DNA of 9,316 nucleotides from a virus (taxonomy: Duplodnaviria > Heunggongvirae > Uroviricota > Caudoviricetes): the IMG/VR virus record IMGVR_UViG_2695420699_000004. One strand, 5' to 3'. Within the stretch, counting starts at the first letter, position 1; the number at the start of each line of letters is the position of its first letter. The notes under the pieces were generated by a model, which did no database searches, was not told the DNA's origin, and saw only the letters and a list, made by a program, of their open reading frames with translations. This document shows positions 1 to 9,316 of the stretch, in pieces. The position numbers and the translations under genes were made by a program.

Positions 1-1217
1 CGACGCTGAAAAAGCCGAAACAGTCCGGCGTGAAGGTGTCTGCGGGCGATCGTCAGGAAGACAGTGCTCATGCTGCCCTGCTGACGCTTCAGGCTGAACT
101 CCGGACGCTGGAGAAGCATGCCGGAGCAAATGAGAAAATCAGCCAGCAGCGCCGGGATTTGTGGAGGGCGGAGAGTCAGTTCGCGGTACTGGAGGAGGCG
201 GCGCAACGTCGCCAGCTGTCTGCACAGGAGAAATCCCTGCTGGCGCATAAAGATGAGACGCTGGAGTACAAACGCCAGCTGGCTGCACTTGGCGACAAGG
301 TTACGTATCAGGAGCGCCTGAACGCGCTGGCGCAGCAGGCGGATAAATTCGCACAGCAGCAACGGGCAAAACGGGCCGCCATTGATGCGAAAAGCCGGGG
401 GCTGACTGACCGGCAGGCAGAACGGGAAGCCACGGAACAGCGCCTGAAGGAACAGTATGGCGATAATCCGCTGGCGCTGAATAACGTCATGTCAGAGCAG
501 AAAAAGACCTGGGCGGCTGAAGACCAGCTTCGCGGGAGCTGGATGGCAGGCCTGAAGTCCGGCTGGAGTGAGTGGGAAGAGAGCGCCACGGACAGTATGT
601 CGCAGGTAAAAAGTGCAGCCACGCAGACCTTTGATGGTATTGCGCAGAATATGGCGGCGATGCTGACCGGCAGTGAGCAGAACTGGCGCAGCTTCACCCG
701 TTCCGTGCTGTCCATGATGACAGAAATTCTGCTTAAGCAGGCAATGGTGGGGATTGTCGGGAGTATCGGCAGCGCCATTGGCGGGGCTGTTGGTGGCGGC
801 GCATCCGCGTCAGGCGGTACAGCCATTCAGGCCGCTGCGGCGAAATTCCATTTTGCAACCGGAGGATTTACGGGAACCGGCGGCAAATATGAGCCAGCGG
901 GGATTGTTCACCGTGGTGAATTTGTCTTCACGAAGGAGGCAACCAGCCGGATTGGCGTGGGGAATCTTTACCGGCTGATGCGCGGCTATGCCACCGGCGG
1001 TTATGTCGGTACACCGGGCAGCATGGCAGACAGCCGGTCGCAGGCGTCCGGGACGTTTGAGCAGAATAACCATGTGGTGATTAACAACGACGGCACGAAC
1101 GGGCAGATAGGTCCGGCTGCTCTGAAGGCGGTGTATGACATGGCCCGCAAGGGTGCCCGTGATGAAATTCAGACACAGATGCGTGATGGTGGCCTGTTCT
1201 CCGGAGGTGGACGATGA
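1..1217 (+). CDS. H: Tail tape measure protein, C-terminal ~405 codons (5'-partial; frame open from position 3, stop TGA 1215-1217)
   Basis: Reading frame is open from the window start (codons 3-5, 6-8 ... with no stop); the ORF track begins at a GTG at 30 but the gene clearly continues upstream. Long coiled-coil-like, Gln/Ala/Arg/Glu-rich sequence followed by a Gly-rich hydrophobic segment (VGIVGSIGSAIGGAVGGGASASGG), typical of siphovirus tape-measure proteins. Sits directly upstream of M-L-K-I-J as in lambda. Stop overlaps the M start (ATGA at 1214-1217). Confidence 0.9.
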   Translation, partial: TLKKPKQSGVKVSAGDRQEDSAHAALLTLQAELRTLEKHAGANEKISQQRRDLWRAESQFAVLEEAAQRRQLSAQEKSLLAHKDETLEYKRQLAALGDKVTYQERLNALAQQADKFAQQQRAKRAAIDAKSRGLTDRQAEREATEQRLKEQYGDNPLALNNVMSEQKKTWAAEDQLRGSWMAGLKSGWSEWEESATDSMSQVKSAATQTFDGIAQNMAAMLTGSEQNWRSFTRSVLSMMTEILLKQAMVGIVGSIGSAIGGAVGGGASASGGTAIQAAAAKFHFATGGFTGTGGKYEPAGIVHRGEFVFTKEATSRIGVGNLYRLMRGYATGGYVGTPGSMADSRSQASGTFEQNNHVVINNDGTNGQIGPAALKAVYDMARKGARDEIQTQMRDGGLFSGGGR

Positions 1218-1543
1218 AGACCTTCCGCTGGAAAGTGAAACCCGGTATGGATGTGGCTTCGGTCCCTTCTGTAAGAAAGGTGCGCTTTGGTGATGGCTAT
1301 TCTCAGCGAGCGCCTGCCGGGCTGAATGCCAACCTGAAAACGTACAGCGTGACGCTTTCTGTCCCCCGTGAGGAGGCCACGGTACTGGAGTCGTTTCTGG
1401 AAGAGCACGGGGGCTGGAAATCCTTTCTGTGGACGCCGCCTTATGAGTGGCGGCAGATAAAGGTGACCTGCGCAAAATGGTCGTCGCGGGTCAGTATGCT
1501 GCGTGTTGAGTTCAGCGCAGAGTTTGAACAGGTGGTGAACTGA
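1214..1543 (+). CDS. M: Minor tail protein M (109 aa)
   Basis: 109-aa ORF with a strong Shine-Dalgarno GGAGGTGG at 1203-1210 before ATG 1214. Start overlaps the H stop and the stop overlaps the L start (translational coupling). Length and position match lambda gpM as I recall it. Confidence 0.9.
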   Translation: MKTFRWKVKPGMDVASVPSVRKVRFGDGYSQRAPAGLNANLKTYSVTLSVPREEATVLESFLEEHGGWKSFLWTPPYEWRQIKVTCAKWSSRVSMLRVEFSAEFEQVVN

Positions 1544-2241
1544 TGCAGGATATCCGGCAGGAAACACTGAATGAATGCACCCGTGCGGAGCAGTCGGCCA
1601 GCGTGGTGCTCTGGGAAATCGACCTGACAGAGGTCGGTGGAGAACGTTATTTTTTCTGTAATGAGCAGAACGAAAAAGGTGAGCCGGTCACCTGGCAGGG
1701 GCGACAGTATCAGCCGTATCCCATTCAGGGGAGCGGTTTTGAACTGAATGGCAAAGGCACCAGTACGCGCCCCACGCTGACGGTTTCTAACCTGTACGGT
1801 ATGGTCACCGGGATGGCGGAAGATATGCAGAGTCTGGTCGGCGGAACGGTGGTCCGGCGTAAGGTTTACGCCCGTTTTCTGGATGCGGTGAACTTCGTCA
1901 ACGGAAACAGTGACGCCGATCCGGAGCAGGAGGTGATCAGCCGCTGGCGCATCGAGCAGTGCAGCGAACTGAGCGCGGTCAGTGCCTCTTTTGTACTGTC
2001 CACGCCGACGGAAACGGACGGTGCCGTTTTTCCGGGACGTATCATGCTGGCCAACACCTGCACCTGGACCTATCGCGGTGATGAGTGCGGTTATCACGGT
2101 CCGGCGGTCGCGGATGAATATGATCAGCCGACGTCCGATATCACGAAGGATAAATGCAGCAAATGCCTGAGCGGCTGTAAGTTTCGCAATAACGTCGGCA
2201 ACTTTGGCGGCTTCCTTTCCATTAACAAACTTTCGCAGTAA
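1543..2241 (+). CDS. L: Minor tail protein L (232 aa), tail-tip protein with C-terminal Cys cluster
   Basis: 232-aa ORF whose ATG at 1543 overlaps the M stop TGA (1541-1543) by 1 nt. C-terminal Cys-rich stretch (CTWTYRGDECGYHG...CSKCLSGC), consistent with the Fe-S-binding tail-tip protein gpL described for lambda. Synteny M-L-K-I. Confidence 0.9.
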   Translation: MQDIRQETLNECTRAEQSASVVLWEIDLTEVGGERYFFCNEQNEKGEPVTWQGRQYQPYPIQGSGFELNGKGTSTRPTLTVSNLYGMVTGMAEDMQSLVGGTVVRRKVYARFLDAVNFVNGNSDADPEQEVISRWRIEQCSELSAVSASFVLSTPTETDGAVFPGRIMLANTCTWTYRGDECGYHGPAVADEYDQPTSDITKDKCSKCLSGCKFRNNVGNFGGFLSINKLSQ

Positions 2242-2246
2242 ATCCC

Positions 2247-2990
2247 ATGACAGAGACAGAATCAGCGATTCTGGCGCACGCCCGGCGATGTGCGCCAGCG
2301 GAGTCGTGCGGCTTCGTGGTGAGAACACCGGAGGGGGAAAGATATTTTCCCTGCGTGAATATCTCCGGTGAGCCGGAGGCGTATTTCCGGATGTCGCCGG
2401 AGGACTGGCTGCGGGCAGAGATGCAGGGTGAGATTGTGGCGCTGGTCCACAGCCACCCCGGTGGTCTGCCCTGGCTGAGTGAGACCGACCGGCGGCTGCA
2501 GGTGCAGAGTGATTTGCCGTGGTGGCTGGTTTGCCGGGGGGCGATTCACAAGTTCCGCTGTGTGCCACATCTTTCCGGGCGGCGCTTTGAGCACGGGGTG
2601 ACGGACTGTTACACGCTGTTCCGGGATGCTTACCATCTGGCGGGGATTGAGATGCCGGATTTTCATCGCGAGGATGACTGGTGGCGTCACGGTCAGAATC
2701 TCTATCTGGATAATCTGGAGGCCACAGGGCTGTATCAGGTGCCGTTGTCATCAGCACAACCGGGCGATGTGCTGCTGTGCTGTTTTGGTTCATCGGTGCC
2801 GAATCATGCCGCCATTTACTGTGGTGACAGCGAGCTGCTGCACCATATTCCTGAACAACTGAGCAAACGAGAGAGGTACACCGACAAATGGCAGCGACGC
2901 ACACACTCCCTCTGGCGTCACCGGGAATGGCACGCATCTGCCTTTACGGGGATTTGCAACGATTTGGCCGCCGCATCGACCTTCGTGTGA
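2247..2990 (+). CDS. K: Tail assembly protein K, JAB/MPN metalloprotease domain + NlpC/P60 cysteine peptidase domain (247 aa as the long ORF; alternative internal start at 2391 gives 199 aa)
   Basis: Contains a complete JAMM motif H-x-H-x7-S-x2-D (VHSHPGGLPWLSETD, about nt 2449-2490), then an NlpC/P60-like Cys (GVTDCYTLF) and downstream His residues (NHAAIYCG...LLHHIP). 3' end overlaps the I start by 103 nt in another frame. The long ORF has a weak SD; the internal ATG 2391 is preceded by GGAGG (2375-2379). Confidence 0.85.
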   Translation: MTETESAILAHARRCAPAESCGFVVRTPEGERYFPCVNISGEPEAYFRMSPEDWLRAEMQGEIVALVHSHPGGLPWLSETDRRLQVQSDLPWWLVCRGAIHKFRCVPHLSGRRFEHGVTDCYTLFRDAYHLAGIEMPDFHREDDWWRHGQNLYLDNLEATGLYQVPLSSAQPGDVLLCCFGSSVPNHAAIYCGDSELLHHIPEQLSKRERYTDKWQRRTHSLWRHREWHASAFTGICNDLAAASTFV

Positions 2991-3559
2991 AAACGGGGGC
3001 TGAAGCCATCCGCGCACTGGCCACACAGCTCCCGGCGTTTCGTCAGAAACTGAGCGACGGCTGGTATCAGGTACGGATTGCCGGGCGGGACGTCAGCACG
3101 TCCGGGTTAACGGCGCAGTTACATGAGACTCTGCCTGACGGCGCTGTGATTCATATTGTTCCCAGCGTCGCCGGGGCCAAGTCAGGGGGCGTATTCCAGA
3201 TTGTTCTGGGGGCTGCCGCCATTGCCGGATCATTCTTTACTGCCGGAGCCACCCTTGCAGCATGGGGGGCAGCCATTGGGGCCGGTGGTATGACCGGCAT
3301 CCTGTTTTCTCTCGGTGCCAGTATGGTGCTCGGTGGTGTGGCGCAGATGCTGGCACCGAAAGCCAGAACTCCCCGTACACAGACAACGGATAACGGTAAG
3401 CAGAACACCTATTTCTCCTCACTGGATAACATGGTTGCCCAGGGCAATGTTCTGCCTGTTCTGTACGGTGAAATGCGCGTGGGGTCACGTGTGGTTTCTC
3501 AGGAGATCAGCACGGCAGACGAAGGGGATGGTGGTCAGGTTGTGGTGATTGGTCGCTGA
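2888..3559 (+). CDS. I: Tail assembly protein I (223 aa), N-terminal ubiquitin-like domain ending in Gly-Gly, C-terminal Gly-rich hydrophobic region
   Basis: 223-aa ORF starting inside the K 3' end (different frame). N-terminal ~100 aa end in ...VAGAKSGG, immediately followed by a glycine-zipper-like hydrophobic stretch (VFQIVLGAAAIAGSFFTAGATLAAWGAAIGAGGMTGILFSLGASMVLGG). Position between K and J matches lambda gpI. Confidence 0.9.
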   Translation: MAATHTLPLASPGMARICLYGDLQRFGRRIDLRVKTGAEAIRALATQLPAFRQKLSDGWYQVRIAGRDVSTSGLTAQLHETLPDGAVIHIVPSVAGAKSGGVFQIVLGAAAIAGSFFTAGATLAAWGAAIGAGGMTGILFSLGASMVLGGVAQMLAPKARTPRTQTTDNGKQNTYFSSLDNMVAQGNVLPVLYGEMRVGSRVVSQEISTADEGDGGQVVVIGR

Positions 3560-3577
3560 TGCAAAACATTTTATGTG

Positions 3578-3600
3578 AAACCGCCTGCGGGCGGTTTTGT
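3578..3600 (+). promoter_or_regulatory. GC-rich hairpin in the I-J intergenic region (AAACCGCC-TGCG-GGCGGTTT) followed by a T-rich tract; possible attenuator or RNA-processing/stability element
   Basis: Perfect 8-bp inverted repeat at 3578-3585 / 3590-3597 with a 4-nt loop, followed by TTTGTCGTTT. Lies 21 nt after the I stop (3557-3559) and 20 nt before the J RBS (GGAG 3608-3611). Function not determinable from sequence. Confidence 0.4.
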
Positions 3601-3619
3601 CGTTTATGGAGCGTGACGA

Positions 3620-6600
3620 ATGGGTAAAGGCAGCAGTAAGGGGCATACCCCGCGCGAAGCGAAGGACAACCTGAAGTCCACGCAGCTGCTGAGTGTGATC
3701 GATGCCATCAGCGAAGGGCCGATTGAAGGTCCGGTGGATGGATTAAAAAGCGTGCTGCTGAACAGTACGCCGGTGCTGGACAGTGAGGGGAATACCAATA
3801 TCTCCGGTGTCACGGTGGTGTTCCGGGCCGGTGAGCAGGAGCAGACACCGCCGGAGGGATTTGAATCCTCCGGCTCCGAGACGGTGCTCGGTACGGAAGT
3901 GAAATATGACACGCCGATCACCCGCACCATCACGTCTGCAAATATCGACCGTCTGCGCTTTACCTTCGGTGTGCAGGCACTGGTGGAAACCACCTCAAAA
4001 GGGGACCGGAATCCGTCGGAAGTCCGCCTGCTGGTTCAGATACAACGTAACGGTGGCTGGGTGACGGAAAAAGACATCACCATTAAGGGCAAAACCACCT
4101 CGCAGTATCTGGCCTCGGTGGTGGTGGATAACCTGCCGCCGCGCCCGTTTAATATCCGGATGCGCAGGATGACGCCGGACAGCACCACAGACCAGCTGCA
4201 GAACAAAACGCTCTGGTCGTCATACACCGAAATCATCGATGTGAAACAGTGCTACCCGAACACGGCACTGGTTGGCGTACAGGTGGACTCAGAGCAGTTC
4301 GGCAGTCAGCAGGTGAGCCGTAATTATCATCTGCGCGGGCGTATTCTGCAGGTGCCGTCGAACTATAACCCGCAGACGCGGCAATACAGCGGTATCTGGG
4401 ACGGAACGTTTAAGCCAGCATACAGCAATAACATGGCCTGGTGTCTGTGGGATATGCTGACCCATCCACGCTACGGCATGGGGAAACGTCTTGGTGCGGC
4501 GGATGTGGACAAATGGGCGCTGTATGTCATCGGCCAGTACTGCGACCAGTCAGTGCCGGACGGCTTTGGCGGCACGGAGCCGCGCATCACCTGTAATGCG
4601 TACCTGACCACACAGCGCAAGGCGTGGGATGTGCTCAGTGATTTCTGCTCGGCGATGCGCTGTATGCCGATATGGAACGGGCAGACGCTGACGTTCGTGC
4701 AGGACCGACCATCAGATAAGGTGTGGACCTATAACCGCAGTAATGTGGTGATGCCGGATGATGGCGCGCCGTTCCGCTACAGCTTTAGCGCCCTGAAAGA
4801 CCGCCATAATGCCGTTGAGGTGAACTGGATTGACCCGAACAACGGCTGGGAGACGGCGACAGAGCTTGTGGAGGATACGCAGGCCATTGCCCGTTACGGT
4901 CGTAACGTCACGAAGATGGATGCTTTTGGCTGTACCAGCCGGGGGCAGGCACACCGCGCCGGGCTGTGGCTGATTAAAACAGAACTGCTGGAAACGCAGA
5001 CCGTGGACTTCTGCGTGGGCGCAGAAGGGCTTCGCCATGTGCCGGGCGATGTCATTGAAATCTGTGATGATGACTATGCCGGTATCAGCACCGGTGGTCG
5101 TGTGCTGGCGGTGAACAGCCAGACCCGGACGCTGACGCTCGACCGTGAAATCACGCTGCCATCCTCCGGTACCACGCTGATAAGCCTGGTTGACGGAAGT
5201 GGCAATCCGGTCAGCGTGGAGGTTCAGTCCGTCACCGACGGCGTGAAGGTAAAAGTGAGCCGTGTTCCTGACGGTGTTGCTGAATACAGCGTATGGGGGC
5301 TGAAGCTGCCGACGCTGCGCCAGCGCCTGTTCCGCTGCGTGAGTATCCGTGAGAATGACGACGGCACGTATGCCATCACCGCTGTGCAGCATGTGCCGGA
5401 GAAAGAGGCCATCGTGGATAACGGGGCGCACTTTGACGGCGACCAGAGCGGCACGGTGAATGGTGTCACGCCGCCAGCAGTGCAGCACCTGACCGCAGAA
5501 GTCACCGCAGACAGCGGGGAATACCAGGTGCTGGCGCGCTGGGACACGCCGAAGGTGGTGAAGGGGGGGAGCTTTATGCTTCGCCTGACCGTGGCAGCGG
5601 ATGACGGCAGTGAGCGGCTGGTCAGCACGGCCCGGACGACGGAAACCACATACCGCTTCAGGCAGCTGGCGTTGGGGCGTTACACGCTGACAGTCCGGGC
5701 GGTAAATGCCCGGGGACAGCAGGGCGATCCGGCGTCGGTATCGTTCCGGATTGCCGCACCGGCAGCGCCGTCACAGATTGAGCTGACGCCGGGCTATTTT
5801 CAGATAACTGCCACGCCGCATCTTGCGGTTTATGATCCGACGGTACAGTTTGAGTTCTGGTTCTCGGAAACGCGGATTACCGATATCAGGCAGGTTGAAA
5901 CCACAGCCCGCTACCTTGGCACGGGGCTGTACTGGATAGCCGCCAGTATCAATATCAAACCGGGCCATGATTATTACTTTTATGTTCGCAGTGTGAACAC
6001 CGTTGGCAAATCGGCATTCGTGGAGGCCGTCGGTCGGGCGAGCGATGATGCGGAAGGTTACCTGGATTTTTTCAAAGGCAAGATAACCGAATCTCATCTC
6101 GGCAAGGAGCTGCTGGAAAAAGTCGATCTGACGGAGGATAACGCCAGCAGACTGGAGGAGTTTTCGAAAGAGTGGAAGGACGCTAACGATAAATGGAATG
6201 CCATGTGGGGCGTCAAAATTGAGCAGACCAAAGACGGCAAACATTATGTCGCGGGTATTGGCCTCAGCATGGAGGACACGGAAGAAGGCAAGCTGAGCCA
6301 GTTTCTGGTTGCCGCTAACCGTATCGCGTTTATTGACCCGGCAAACGGGAATGAAACGCCGATGTTTGTGGCGCAGGGCAATCAGATATTCATGAACGAC
6401 GTGTTCCTGAAGCGCCTGACGGCTCCCACCATTACCAGTGGTGGCAGTCCTCCGGTATTTTCCCTGACATCAGACGGAAAGCTGACCGCTAAAAATGCGG
6501 ATATCAGTGGCAGTGTGAATGCGAACTCCGGGACGCTCAACAACGTCACGGTAAATGAAAACTGTACGATTAAGGGCATGCTGGAGGCGACTCAGGTCAG

Positions 6601-7033
6601 AGGTGACTTCGTTAAAGCTGTATCCAAATCATTTCCGAAACAGGCTGGTACGTGGGGTAACACGGAAACACCAAACGGGACGGTTACAGTCACCATCAGC
6701 GATGATCATAACTTTGACCGTCAAATCATTATTCCGCCCATTATCTTTAACGGAATAGCGTATAGCTATCCGGGAAGTGGTAATAACCCGGGAGGTACAA
6801 GTTACACGGGTTATGGTTTTGAAGTTCGCAAAAACGGTGTATTAATCGCATCCAGAGAAACTAAAGGGGCCATTCCCGGTAGCTACAGTGCGGTTATTGA
6901 TATGCCGAGTGGCAGGGGAAGCGTCACTCTGGAGTTTAAGGTTTTCCATAAAGGCAATCAGTGGGCAGGTAATATCACCGACTGTACGGTGATTGTGACC
7001 AAAAAAGCCGCTTCCGGCATCAGTATTCGTTGA
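3620..7033 (+). CDS. J: Host-specificity / central tail fibre protein J (1137 aa)
   Basis: 1137-aa ORF with SD GGAG 8 nt upstream of ATG 3620. Size, position after I, and fibronectin-III-like beta-rich repeats in the middle (e.g. ...[27 protein letters not shown]...) are characteristic of lambda-type gpJ. The C-terminal ~150 aa are compositionally distinct (see findings). Confidence 0.95.
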
Positions 7034-7054
7034 AATTGTTATAACCCATATAAG

Positions 7055-7080
7055 GGCACCAGAAATGGTGCCTTTTTTAT
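7055..7080 (+). terminator. Putative rho-independent terminator downstream of J
   Basis: GGCACC (7055-7060) - AGAAAT loop - GGTGCC (7067-7072), followed immediately by TTTTTTATT (7073-7081); 22 nt after the J stop. Confidence 0.6.
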
Positions 7081-7102
7081 TGCAGAAAAGCGAGAGGTAA
7101 TT

Positions 7103-7702
7103 ATGCGTAAAGTTTGTGCCGCAATTTTGTCCGCAGCCATTTGTCTGGCCGTATCCGGTGCGCCTGCATGGGCGTCTGAACATCAGTCCACGCTGAGCGC
7201 GGGGTATCTTCATGCCTCGACCAACGTTCCCGGCAGCGATGATCTGAACGGGATTAACGTGAAATACCGTTATGAGTTTACGGACACGCTGGGAATGGTG
7301 ACGTCATTCAGCTATGCAGGAGACAAGAATCGCCAGCTTACCCGTTACAGCGATACCCGCTGGCATGAAGATTCCGTGCGTAACCGCTGGTTCAGCGTGA
7401 TGGCGGGGCCGTCTGTGCGCGTGAATGAATGGTTCAGCGCGTATGCGATGGCGGGTATGGCTTACAGCCGTGTGTCGACTTTCTCCGGGGATTATCTTCG
7501 CGTAACTGACAACAAGGGGAAAACGCACGACGTGCTGACCGGAAGTGATGACGGTCGCCACAGCAACACGTCTCTGGCGTGGGGAGCTGGCGTGCAGTTT
7601 AACCCGACCGAATCCGTGGCCATTGATATTGCTTATGAAGGCTCCGGCAGTGGTGACTGGCGCACTGACGGTTTCATCGTGGGTGTCGGTTATAAGTTCT
7701 GA
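7103..7702 (+). CDS. lom: Lom/Ail-family outer-membrane beta-barrel protein (199 aa), lysogenic-conversion cassette
   Basis: SD GAGAGG (7092-7097) 5 nt before ATG 7103. N-terminal signal peptide ([24 protein letters not shown]|SE), alternating amphipathic beta-strand pattern and C-terminal aromatic ...VGVGYKF typical of 8-stranded OMP barrels of the Ail/Lom/OmpX family. Position between J and stf as in lambda. Confidence 0.9.
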
Positions 7703-7728
7703 TTAGCCAGGTAACACAGTGTTATGAC

Positions 7729-7756
7729 AGCCCGCCGGTTCAGGCGGGCTTTTTTG
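7729..7756 (+). terminator. Putative rho-independent terminator downstream of lom
   Basis: AGCCCGCC (7729-7736) - GGTTCA loop - GGCGGGCT (7743-7750) followed by TTTTTT (7750-7755); 27 nt after the lom stop. Confidence 0.7.
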
Positions 7757-7766
7757 TGGGGGGAAT

Positions 7767-9316
7767 ATGGCAGTAAAGATTTCAGGTGTACTGAAAGACG
7801 GCACAGGAAAACCGGTAGAGAACTGCACCATTCAACTGAAAGCCAGACGTAACAGCGCCACGGTGGTGGTGAACACGGTGGCCTCAGAAAATCCGGATGA
7901 AGCCGGTCGTTACAGCATGGACGTTGAGTACGGTCAGTACAGCGTTATTCTGTTGGTGGAGGGATTTCCTCCGTCACATGCCGGGACCATCACCGTGTAT
8001 GAAGATTCTCAACCCGGTACGCTGAATGATTTTCTCGGTGCCATGTCGGAGGATGACGTCCGGCCGGAGGCACTGCGCCGTTTTGAACTGATGGTGGAAG
8101 AGGTGGCGCGTCACGCAGAGGAGGCGAAGAAGAATGCCGGAGAGGCAGAGACGTCCGCGAGGAATGCCGGCATATCAGCCAGTCAGGCAGAAAAGAGCGC
8201 TGCAAATGCTGACACTTCAGCAGGGGAGGCATCGGAGTCAGCCCGGCAGGCGGCAGAAAGTGCAGCCTCAGCAAAGCAGTCAGAGGATGCGTCCTCGTCC
8301 TCGGCTTCTGCGGCCGCTCAAAAAGCCAGTGAGTCATCACAAAGTGCAGCAGAAGCTGAATTGTCAAGAAAGACGGCAGAAAGTGCAGCCGGTAATGCAG
8401 CCAGGGATGCAACGACCGCAACAGAAAAAGCCCGGGAGTCAGCAGAAAGCGCACAGTCAGCGGAACAAAGCAGGATAGCGGCGGAAGAAGCCGTAAACCG
8501 AATCCCCACAGTGGTGGGGCCACCCGGGCCAAAGGGAGAACCGGGGCCCGCGGGTCCTCAGGGGCCGAAGGGTGATAAGGGAGAGCGCGGTGACACCGGC
8601 CCTGTCGGGGCAACCGGCGAACGGGGACCGGCAGGTGATGCTGGTCCGGCAGGCCCGCAGGGGCCGAAAGGCGACAGGGGAGAGCGGGGAGAGACCGGTC
8701 TGACGGGAAATGCAGGTCCACAGGGTCCAAAGGGAGATACCGGTGCGGCAGGCCCGAAGAGCGCTGCAAATGCTGACACTTCAGCAGGGGAGGCATCGGA
8801 GTCAGCCCGGCAGGCGGCAGAAAGTGCAGCCGCTGCAAAGCAGTCAGAGGAGGCGTCCTCGTCCTCGGCTTCTGCGGCCGCTCAAAAAGCCAGTGAGTCA
8901 TCACAAAGTGCAGCAGAAGCTGAATTGTCAAGAAAGACGGCAGAAAGTGCAGCCGGTAATGCATCCAGGGATGCAACGACCGCAGCAGAAAAAGCCCGGG
9001 AGTCAGCAGAAAGCGCACAGTCAGCGGAACAAAGCAGGATAGCGGCGGAAGACGCCGTAAACCGAATCCCCACCGTGGTGGGACCTCCCGGGCCAAAGGG
9101 AGAACCGGGGCCCGCGGGTCCTCAGGGGCCGAAGGGAGATAAAGGAGAGCGTGGCGACACCGGTCCTGTCGGGGCAACCGGTGAGCGGGGACCGGCAGGT
9201 GATGCTGGTCCGGCAGGCCCGCAGGGGCCGAAAGGCGACAGGGGAGAGCGGGGAGAGACCGGTCTGACGGGAAATGCAGGTCCACAGGGTCCAAAGGGAG
9301 ATACCGGTGCGGCAGG
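7767..9316 (+). CDS. stf: Side tail fibre protein (3'-partial; at least 516 codons, no stop in window): lambda-Stf-like N-terminal domain + Ala/Ser/Glu-rich helical segment + collagen-like Gly-X-Y repeats
   Basis: Not in the supplied ORF track because it has no stop inside the window. I translated it by hand from ATG 7767 (frame 0) and it is open to 9316. N-terminus MAVKISGVLKDGTGKPVENCTIQLKARRNS... matches my recollection of the lambda Stf N-terminus. Downstream: low-complexity A/S/E/Q-rich sequence, then 27 consecutive G-X-Y triplets (GPPGPKGEPGPAGPQGPKGDKGERGDTGPVGATGERGPAGDAGPAGPQGPKGDRGERGETGLTGNAGPQGPKGDTGAAGPK) at 8517-8759, and again from 9081 to the window end. G-run SD (GGGGGG 7758-7763) upstream. 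Confidence 0.85.
   Translation, partial: MAVKISGVLKDGTGKPVENCTIQLKARRNSATVVVNTVASENPDEAGRYSMDVEYGQYSVILLVEGFPPSHAGTITVYEDSQPGTLNDFLGAMSEDDVRPEALRRFELMVEEVARHAEEAKKNAGEAETSARNAGISASQAEKSAANADTSAGEASESARQAAESAASAKQSEDASSSSASAAAQKASESSQSAAEAELSRKTAESAAGNAARDATTATEKARESAESAQSAEQSRIAAEEAVNRIPTVVGPPGPKGEPGPAGPQGPKGDKGERGDTGPVGATGERGPAGDAGPAGPQGPKGDRGERGETGLTGNAGPQGPKGDTGAAGPKSAANADTSAGEASESARQAAESAAAAKQSEEASSSSASAAAQKASESSQSAAEAELSRKTAESAAGNASRDATTAAEKARESAESAQSAEQSRIAAEDAVNRIPTVVGPPGPKGEPGPAGPQGPKGDKGERGDTGPVGATGERGPAGDAGPAGPQGPKGDRGERGETGLTGNAGPQGPKGDTGAA
8193..8756. repeat. Tandem direct repeat, copy 1 of a 564-bp (188-codon) in-frame module within stf
   Basis: Sequence from 8193 (aagagcgctgcaaatgctgacacttcagcagggg...) recurs from 8757 with the same phase. 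I count about 16 mismatches over about 560 aligned bp by eye (about 97% identity). Confidence 0.9.
8757..9316. repeat. Tandem direct repeat, copy 2 (truncated by window end) of the 564-bp stf module
   Basis: Direct repeat of 8193-8756 at a period of exactly 564 bp; the window ends 4 bp before the copy would be complete, so further copies downstream cannot be excluded. Confidence 0.9.

What the first reader, a model, noticed from the sequence alone, without database searches (positions are those of the whole stretch)
7767..9316. Chimeric side tail fibre: lambda-Stf-type N-terminal anchor fused to collagen-like Gly-X-Y triple-helix modules
The first ~110 residues look like the lambda Stf N-terminus (the part that attaches the fibre to the tail). 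The protein then switches to an Ala/Ser/Glu-rich helical-looking segment and an uninterrupted 27-triplet Gly-X-Y block rich in Pro, Lys, Glu and Arg, a bacterial collagen-like motif. From memory, lambda Stf itself has no such G-X-Y block. Collagen-like segments act as rigid, length-setting shafts in phage fibres, so this suggests a modular fibre whose shaft length and distal receptor-binding tip (beyond the window) are exchangeable.
Basis: partly seen in the sequence, partly recalled or inferred. Interest (0 to 1): 0.6.

Follow-up and report, generated by a model that had tools for sequence, protein, structure and literature searches.

The report
Collagen-like prophage side tail fibre

Summary
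Positions 7767-9316 are one open frame of 516 codons that runs off the window. It has a lambda-Stf N-terminal domain (PF08400, E 6e-69; 91% identical to lambda over aa 1-117). An Ala/Ser/Glu-rich coiled-coil segment follows, then 27 uninterrupted Gly-X-Y triplets.

It is not new. This is the EPclA class of EHEC prophage collagen-like proteins (Ghosh et al. 2012), shown experimentally to be trimeric coiled-coil plus collagen fibres. It is 96% identical over aa 1-330 to the annotated side tail fibre of phage 434. Genes of this type occur in about 712 of 5,426 complete E. coli genomes, usually in several copies.

This is a 564-bp in-frame tandem duplication of the distal coiled coil plus collagen module. 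I found the junction in no collection I searched.

The window is a whole 9,316-bp draft contig (CYEQ01000065.1). It ends exactly where the repeat becomes ambiguous. The duplication may therefore be a real rare length variant, adding about 39 nm of shaft, or an assembly error. The tip domain lies beyond the contig.

Interest is low.

The parts
7729..7750 (+). Terminator-like GC-rich hairpin followed by a T-run, after lom and just upstream of the fibre gene
   Evidence: The equivalent site is annotated as a terminator in phage 434.
7758..7764 (+). Ribosome-binding site GGGGGGA, ending 2 nt before ATG 7767
   Evidence: An RBS is annotated at the same place in phage 434.
7767..9316 (+). Side tail fibre gene (stf, EPclA type). 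It is 5'-complete and 3'-truncated by the contig end, with 516 codons plus 2 nt.
7767..8039 (+). StfN collar domain (aa 1-91), which docks the fibre on the tail at gpV and gpM
   Evidence: PDB 9E7M/9MGH matches aa 1-93 at E 5.9e-52. Domain limits and contacts come from the Ur-lambda structure. The gpM encoded at window 1214-1543 is 100% identical to lambda gpM.
8040..8069 (+). Flexible linker (aa 92-101), assigned by homology with Ur-lambda Stf
   Evidence: with 91% identity across this stretch. This is an inference.
8117..8118 (+). Mosaic breakpoint relative to lambda Stf. Identity of 91% up to aa 117 drops to none after it.
8070..8516 (+). PCoil: an Ala/Ser/Glu-rich trimeric alpha-helical coiled coil (aa 102-250)
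   Evidence: Composition and heptad signal. The PCoil definition and experimental evidence are in Ghosh 2012.
8517..8759 (+). Collagen block 1: 27 uninterrupted G-X-Y triplets (aa 251-331). The last triplet, GPK, is completed by the duplication junction.
8193..8756 (+). Duplication unit, copy 1 (564 nt, 188 codons: distal PCoil plus Col). Its allele is nearly identical to the single-copy fibre gene of strain 95-3192.
8756..8757 (+). Novel junction GGC CCG | AAG AGC. It lies at a codon boundary, is in frame, and shows no microhomology.
   Evidence: It is absent from all collections searched.
8757..9316 (+). Duplication unit, copy 2. It differs from copy 1 at 16 of 560 nt and from the Z1323HEC0067 allele at 5 nt. 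It is cut 4 nt short of a full unit by the contig end.
8757..9080 (+). PCoil': the second coiled-coil segment (aa 331-438). It follows collagen block 1 directly.
9081..9316 (+). Collagen block 2: 26 triplets (aa 439-516) up to the contig end

Best explanation
The region encodes the first 516 residues of a lambdoid-prophage side tail fibre of the EPclA class. This is the PfN - PCoil - Col - PfC architecture, and its closest phage relative is the phage 434 side tail fibre.

By homology the mechanism is as follows. Three chains form one fibre. The N-terminal StfN domains (aa 1-91) join a collar around the tail tip that contacts gpV and gpM. A short linker leads into a trimeric Ala/Ser-rich coiled coil, and then into a collagen triple helix. 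Together these form a thin, hinged stalk that holds a small C-terminal trimerising tip domain away from the tail. That tip is presumed to be the receptor-binding part. It makes first, reversible contact with the cell surface before the central fibre J engages its receptor.

As assembled, this copy carries an in-frame 564-bp tandem duplication of the distal coiled coil plus collagen module, giving PfN - PCoil - Col - PCoil' - Col'. The two copies match different alleles that occur as single-copy fibre genes in other genomes. If the duplication is real, it therefore arose by unequal exchange between two fibre genes. It would add about 16 nm of coiled coil and 23 nm of collagen to the shaft.

Shown here: the family identity, the domain order, and the repeat in this sequence. 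Inferred: trimer formation, docking, the tip beyond the contig, and function of the doubled shaft. I put the duplication itself at about 0.6 real.
For: - **Domains.** Pfam finds PF08400 and PF01391.
- **Nearest relative.** Aa 1-330 are 96% identical to the phage 434 side tail fibre. Aa 331-516 are 97% identical to 434 aa 143-328.
- **Missing parts, by analogy.** The 434 protein and the Z1323HEC0067 homologue continue with 10 more G-X-Y triplets and a PF06820 C-terminal domain, followed by an 89-aa PF06820 gene.
- **Gene context.** The order is H-M-L-K-I-J-lom-stf. J is 98% identical to 434 J and gpM is 100% identical to lambda gpM.
- **Anchor structure.** The solved Ur-lambda StfN collar matches aa 1-93.
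- **Experimental work on the family.** EPclA is a trimer with a collagen CD signature, a coiled-coil PCoil, and a 55-62 nm dumbbell shape. The PCoil composition here is 31.6% Ala, 20.5% Ser and 12.8% Glu, against the published 32/19/13.
- **Duplication.** Searches show the repeat. The junction is in frame at a codon boundary. Copy 1 differs from the 95-3192 allele at 1 nt over 8229-8752. Copy 2 differs from the Z1323HEC0067 allele at 5 nt. The two copies differ from each other at 16 nt. The junction has no flanking homology, so a k-mer graph could not create it without reads that contain it. This last point is my inference.
Against: The C-terminal tip and the stop codon are not in the window, so completeness and tip type are unknown.

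The duplication junction was found nowhere else:
- 5,426 complete E. coli genomes and 50,697 phage records;
- IMG/VR, JGI metagenomes and GTDB representative genomes;
- the protein search, where no protein covers more than 65% of the query, and none covers more than 43% of a junction-spanning peptide at high identity.

The window is an entire draft contig. It ends at exactly the base where the junction path and the normal path diverge, after 131 nt that are identical in both copies. The assembler was therefore struggling with this repeat.

No receptor, and no virion localisation of an EPclA-type fibre, was demonstrated in the papers I read.
Confidence: 0.85

Rival explanations
1. The gene is an ordinary single-module 437-aa EPclA fibre. 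On this reading the tandem duplication is an assembly or scaffolding artefact, produced because the strain carries several near-identical fibre genes in different prophages.
For: - The window is a whole 9,316-bp contig of a draft assembly.
- It ends exactly at the repeat branch point.
- The two copies carry different alleles that are known elsewhere as single-copy genes.
- Genomes that have this gene carry a median of 6-9 copies.
- Draft assemblies very often break inside this gene. Clusters of 308 and 1,693 'partial' Col-PfC fragments show this.
- The junction was seen in no other record.
Against: The junction sequence CCCG|AAGAGC has no homology between its two parents, so it cannot come from a k-mer overlap mis-join. 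There are no Ns in the contig. The join is in frame, at a codon boundary, and completes a GPK collagen triplet. Each copy reproduces a natural haplotype over hundreds of bases, which argues against random mis-phasing.
Confidence: 0.38
2. The duplication is real, but the gene is a decaying remnant in a defective prophage and makes no functional fibre.
For: Many EHEC prophages are defective, and frame-disrupted EPclA copies are recorded (Table 2). The 3' end of the gene cannot be inspected here.
Against: The part of H present in the window, and all of M, L, K, I, J, lom and the first 516 codons of stf, are open and full length against their Pfam models. The duplication preserves the frame.
Confidence: 0.1
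3. It is a bacterial cell-surface collagen-like adhesin, like streptococcal Scl, and not a virion component.
For: One database record names a homologue 'collagen-like surface-anchored protein SclE' (P0024).
Against: No signal-peptide-like or anchor features are evident in the translated sequence, though I ran no predictor. The N-terminus is the solved lambda Stf collar domain. The gene sits at the stf position of a lambda-type tail operon.
Confidence: 0.02

Closest known systems
EPclA (EHEC prophage collagen-like protein A, for example ECs2717 or Z0982; Ghosh et al. 2012, PLoS One 7:e37872)
   Same: It has the PfN (PF08400) - PCoil - Col order, the same PCoil composition, the same collagen triplet style, and the same position after J and lom in lambdoid prophages.
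   Different: Published EPclA proteins have one PCoil and one Col of 63-144 aa. This copy has PCoil-Col-PCoil'-Col'. The first Col has 27 triplets instead of 37 and is followed directly by a coiled coil. The PfC end is not in the window.
Phage 434 side tail fibre (UMO75288.1, OL657226.1), together with E. coli WP_406846416.1 and WP_106905600.1
   Same: Identity is 96-97% over every segment. The neighbouring genes are the same: J is 98% identical, and lom is present.
   Different: Those proteins are 437 aa with a single module. This one carries an extra 188-aa module and is truncated.
Lambda (Ur-lambda) Stf, with the collar domain solved as PDB 9E7M/9MGH
   Same: Aa 1-117 are 91% identical. The collar domain and linker are shared. 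The docking partner gpM is identical.
   Different: Lambda continues with a long Ala/Ser/Thr coiled coil, a Pf2 repeat, a hinge and a gp37-like tip with a Tfa chaperone. It has no collagen.
EPclB (933W / Sp5 Stx2-phage fibre, 645 aa)
   Same: It has PfN, PCoil and two collagen domains in one chain.
   Different: In EPclB the two Col domains are separated by a Pf2 repeat and are not copies of each other. Here they are separated by a second PCoil and are 97% identical at the DNA level.
Collectins and class A scavenger receptors, named from general knowledge as a functional analogy only
   Same: These are trimeric stalks in which a collagen helix abuts an alpha-helical coiled coil. That is the Col-to-PCoil' order created here.
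   Different: They are unrelated in sequence, are eukaryotic, and carry lectin or SRCR heads.

Membership tests
EPclA-type prophage collagen-like side tail fibre | N-terminal PfN domain (PF08400) | tested here: met
   E 6.3e-69, matching aa 1-133 to profile positions 1-133 of 134.
EPclA-type prophage collagen-like side tail fibre | Low-complexity Ala/Ser/Glu PCoil with heptad periodicity between PfN and Col | tested here: met
   Ala 31.6%, Ser 20.5%, Glu 12.8%, against the published 32/19/13. Lag-7 autocorrelation is 0.44.
EPclA-type prophage collagen-like side tail fibre | Uninterrupted (Gly-X-Y)n collagen domain (PF01391) | tested here: met
   Blocks of 27 and 26 triplets; PF01391 at E 1.4e-25.
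EPclA-type prophage collagen-like side tail fibre | A single Col domain per chain | tested here: not met
   As assembled, there are two Col blocks separated by a second PCoil. This rests on one draft contig.
EPclA-type prophage collagen-like side tail fibre | C-terminal PfC trimerisation domain (PF06820) | not testable with these tools
   The contig ends inside Col'. PF06820 is present in the nearest relatives. Other relatives carry PF13884 instead.
EPclA-type prophage collagen-like side tail fibre | Located after J and lom in a lambdoid tail gene cluster | tested here: met
   The order is H, M, L, K, I, J, Lom, then this gene.
EPclA-type prophage collagen-like side tail fibre | Forms a trimer with a collagen triple helix and a coiled coil | not testable with these tools
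   Shown experimentally for recombinant EPclA. Inferred here from the 96% identity of the window protein to the phage 434 fibre, which has the same 437-aa EPclA domain architecture; I did not compare it directly with ECs2717.
Lambda Stf family in the strict sense | StfN collar domain that docks on gpV and gpM | tested here: met
   PDB 9E7M/9MGH chain matches aa 1-93 at E 5.9e-52; identity to lambda is 91%.
Lambda Stf family in the strict sense | Pf2 repeat (PF03406) and a gp37-like distal tip (PF07484, PF03335) served by a Tfa chaperone | tested here: not met
   None is found in the 516 aa present. The nearest full-length relatives have PF06820 instead. Lambda has them.

The most novel reading that the evidence does not exclude
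The 188-aa PCoil-Col duplication is real and the fibre is functional. Unequal exchange between two different fibre alleles, from co-resident prophages or a superinfecting phage, would then have produced a (PCoil-Col)x2 side fibre with a shaft of roughly double length, about 88 nm against about 46-48 nm. It would contain a new collagen-to-coiled-coil junction. I did not find this architecture in the published EPclA-D scheme or in any collection searched. It would show whole-module copy-number change as a way of tuning fibre reach.
Probability: 0.4. Interest if true: 0.35.

Novelty: new member of a known kind. Interest (0 to 1): 0.2.

Why it matters

The only point of possible value is the module duplication. 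If it is real, it is a natural experiment. It would test whether a collagen helix can be nucleated by a downstream coiled coil instead of PfC. It would also show how doubling the stalk affects adsorption.

In practical terms, it illustrates how draft assemblies break and mis-annotate this gene. The gene calls returned with the public contig list the antisense ORF and not the fibre.

Tried and rejected
- **Tandem Repeats Finder** returned nothing because the 564-nt period exceeds its 500-nt limit. The repeat finder and a direct offset comparison found the repeat.
- **80-nt junction query.** This was uninformative. Single-copy genes match both halves and the tool joins them into two-piece 'places'. 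I replaced it with a 40-nt query that can only seed across the junction, and it gave no match.
- **Exact 24-mer junction scans** of GTDB representatives, IMG/VR and JGI metagenomes gave 0 hits.
- **Protein searches.** The full protein and a junction-spanning peptide found no two-module relative.
- **Independent assemblies.** I looked up the exact J protein and found only the source contig. I also looked up the antisense ORF product that spans the junction, and it is not on record.
- **Structure prediction.** I did not run it. A monomer model of a trimeric collagen and coiled-coil fibre would be uninformative, and the N-terminal domain already has a solved homologue.
- **Rejected: a novel chimera.** The architecture is a described family.
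- **Rejected: a surface adhesin.** The gene context and the collar domain argue against it.

Full report
**What is in the sequence**

The window carries the distal half of a lambda-type tail operon on the + strand. The genes, with their Pfam matches, are:

| Gene | Coordinates | Evidence |
|---|---|---|
| Tape-measure H, C-terminal part | open from position 1; listed ORF 30-1217 | PF09718 |
| M | 1214-1543 | PF05939 |
| L | 1543-2241 | PF05100 |
| K | 2247-2990 | PF14464, PF00877 |
| I | 2888/2987-3559 | PF06805 |
| Central fibre J | 3620-7033, 1137 aa | six J-specific Pfam domains (plus weak fn3 and Y_Y_Y matches) |
| lom | 7103-7702 | PF06316, E 1.5e-121 |

After a terminator-like hairpin (7729-7750) and a GGGGGGA ribosome-binding site, an ATG at 7767 opens a frame. 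That frame runs without a stop to the last base of the window, 516 codons in all.

**Checking the observation**

- Aa 1-133 match PF08400 at E 6.3e-69.
- Aa 1-117 are 106/117 identical to lambda orf-401, the N-terminal part of Stf. Similarity ends sharply at residue 117.
- Next comes a segment with 31% Ala, 19% Ser and 14% Glu. It has a clear 7-residue periodicity of small residues.
- Aa 251-331 are 27 uninterrupted Gly-X-Y triplets. Pro dominates the X position, and K, A, T and R dominate Y.
- PF01391 (Collagen) matches at E 1.4e-25 in four stretches.
- Lambda Stf (orf-401 plus orf-314) has no such block and no PF01391 hit.

**What it is**

The architecture is not a new chimera. It is the EPclA class of 'EHEC prophage collagen-like proteins' defined by Ghosh et al. 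2012 (PMC3368898). The class has a PfN (PF08400) - PCoil - Col - PfC (PF06820) order.

[quoted passage not shown] It showed experimentally that recombinant EPclA is a trimer. Its Col domain has a collagen triple-helix CD signature with a Tm of 42 C. PCoil is a trimeric coiled coil. The molecule is a 55-62 nm dumbbell with a hinged stalk.

The window protein is 96% identical over aa 1-330 to the annotated 437-aa side tail fibre of phage 434. It is equally close to PGAP-annotated 'prophage tail fiber N-terminal domain-containing proteins' in E. coli chromosomes.

Sequences of this gene type occur in 712 of 5,426 complete E. coli genomes, with a median of 6-9 copies per positive genome. They also occur in hundreds of Stx-converting phage records.

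**How it most likely works**

The N-terminal 93 residues match the solved Ur-lambda Stf collar domain (PDB 9E7M/9MGH) at E 5.9e-52. In Ur-lambda, StfN (aa 1-91) forms a collar that contacts gpV and gpM. A linker of about 10 residues connects three collar domains to the trimeric coiled coil of each of four side fibres.

The gpM encoded in this window is 100% identical to lambda gpM, so the docking mode is very probably the same. This is an inference.

The coiled coil and collagen helix then act as a thin, hinged spacer that carries the C-terminal domain. In the nearest full-length relatives that end is 10 more triplets plus a PF06820 domain, followed by a separate 89-aa PF06820 gene.

Other close relatives carry the same N-terminal two-thirds joined to a PF13884 (S74 intramolecular chaperone) end. 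The listed hits range from 293 to 498 aa, and Ghosh lists Col lengths from 27 to 322 aa.

Positions 8757-9316 repeat 8193-8752 at an offset of exactly 564 nt, or 188 codons, with 16 differences. In protein terms, aa 331-516 repeat aa 143-328 of the 434 fibre at 97% identity. As assembled, the chain therefore reads PfN - PCoil - Col(27 triplets) - PCoil'(108 aa) - Col'(at least 26 triplets).

The junction is GGC CCG | AAG AGC. It falls at a codon boundary, is in frame, and completes a GPK triplet. I can see no microhomology between its two parents.

The two copies are not young sisters.

- Copy 1 over 8229-8752 differs at one base from the single-copy gene of strain 95-3192. That match includes the allele-specific CCCG just before the junction.
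- The 3' half of copy 1 is 100% identical to genes in O145 genomes.
- Copy 2 is 5 nt from the Z1323HEC0067 allele.

If the structure is real, this points to unequal exchange between two different fibre genes.

Using 0.148 nm per residue for a coiled coil and 0.29 nm per residue for collagen, the extra module would add about 16 + 23.5 nm. With exactly two modules and a normal 3' end, the protein would be about 625 aa.

**Is the duplication real?**

I could not settle this. Three findings raise doubt.

- The window is the entire 9,316-bp contig CYEQ01000065.1 of draft assembly GCA_001283285.1.
- The contig ends after 131 nt that are identical in both copies. It stops at exactly the base before the junction path (CCCG AAG...) and the normal path (T/CCCGGCAGG...) diverge. 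That is the signature of a contig stopping at a repeat branch.
- The junction is absent from every collection I searched:
  - 5,426 complete E. coli genomes and 50,697 phage records, using a 40-mer that can only seed across the junction;
  - GTDB representatives, IMG/VR and JGI metagenomes, using an exact 24-mer;
  - the protein search, where no protein covers more than 65% of the full query, and none covers more than 43% of a junction-spanning peptide at high identity.

Four points favour reality.

- A junction without flanking homology cannot be created by a k-mer overlap.
- The contig has no Ns.
- The join is in frame.
- Each copy reproduces a natural haplotype.

I put the probability that it is real at about 0.6.

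**Comparison with known families, and novelty**

Membership in the EPclA family is met for PfN, PCoil, Col and gene context. It is untestable for the PfC end and for trimerisation. It is formally not met for 'a single Col domain'.

The protein shares only the anchor with lambda Stf in the strict sense. The Pf2 repeat and the gp37-like tip are absent.

EPclB also has two Col domains. In EPclB, however, they are separated by a Pf2 repeat and are not copies of each other.

The finding as stated is already known. This sequence is a new member of a known kind, and it may carry a length-variant architecture that has not been reported.

**Verdict**

Interest is low at 0.2. The only thing worth following up is cheap: read mapping or a PCR across the gene would decide whether the doubled shaft exists.

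Noticed in passing
window 1-9316: The window is a complete contig, CYEQ01000065.1 (9,316 bp), of NCBI draft assembly GCA_001283285.1. Both ends are therefore assembly breaks. The 5' end cuts the tape-measure gene H, and the 3' end cuts the fibre gene inside a repeat.
   Followed up: yes
window 7990-9294, minus strand: A 434-aa antisense ORF, rich in Leu, Pro and Arg, spans the PCoil and Col repeats. The gene calls returned with the public contig list it (7990-9285, 431 aa, no Pfam hit) and do not list the fibre gene. It looks like a by-product of the biased, stop-free repeat coding. Lambda likewise has an antisense 'orf206b' annotated inside orf-401.
   Followed up: partly
L001 7083-7352 (phage 434); L002 8083-8352; L004 3678-3947: The 89-aa gene just downstream of the fibre is annotated as a 'tail fiber assembly chaperone' in phage 434. 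It is itself a PF06820 Phage_fiber_C domain (E 5e-36), that is, a free-standing copy of the fibre's own C-terminal domain and not a Tfa-type chaperone. P0015 (494 aa) carries two PF06820 stretches in one chain.
   Followed up: partly
window 3620-7033 (J), aa ~985-1137: J is 88% identical to lambda J overall, but its C-terminal receptor-binding part diverges strongly from lambda. The whole protein is 98% identical to phage 434 J, so the central-fibre receptor is probably the 434 type and not LamB. From memory, and unverified, the 434 receptor is OmpC.
   Followed up: partly
L001 7530-10730; L002 8530-11730; L004 4377-5368: In the closest relatives, the region just downstream of the fibre genes carries type III secretion effector cargo, namely nleB, nleC, nleH and nleD, some as pseudogenes. 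This includes classic phage 434. The same cargo may lie beyond this contig.
   Followed up: no
proteins P0121, P0122, P0123, P0128: There are very large clusters (308, 207 and 1,693 members) of 126-142-aa 'partial' Col-PfC proteins in NCBI. They show that draft E. coli assemblies routinely break inside this gene's repeats and leave 3' fragments annotated as separate proteins.
   Followed up: no
window 2247-2990 and 2888-3559: The K-like ORF is 247 aa (Prok-JAB plus NlpC/P60), against 199 aa annotated for lambda K. It overlaps the longest I ORF by about 100 nt. The public gene call starts I at 2987.
   Followed up: no
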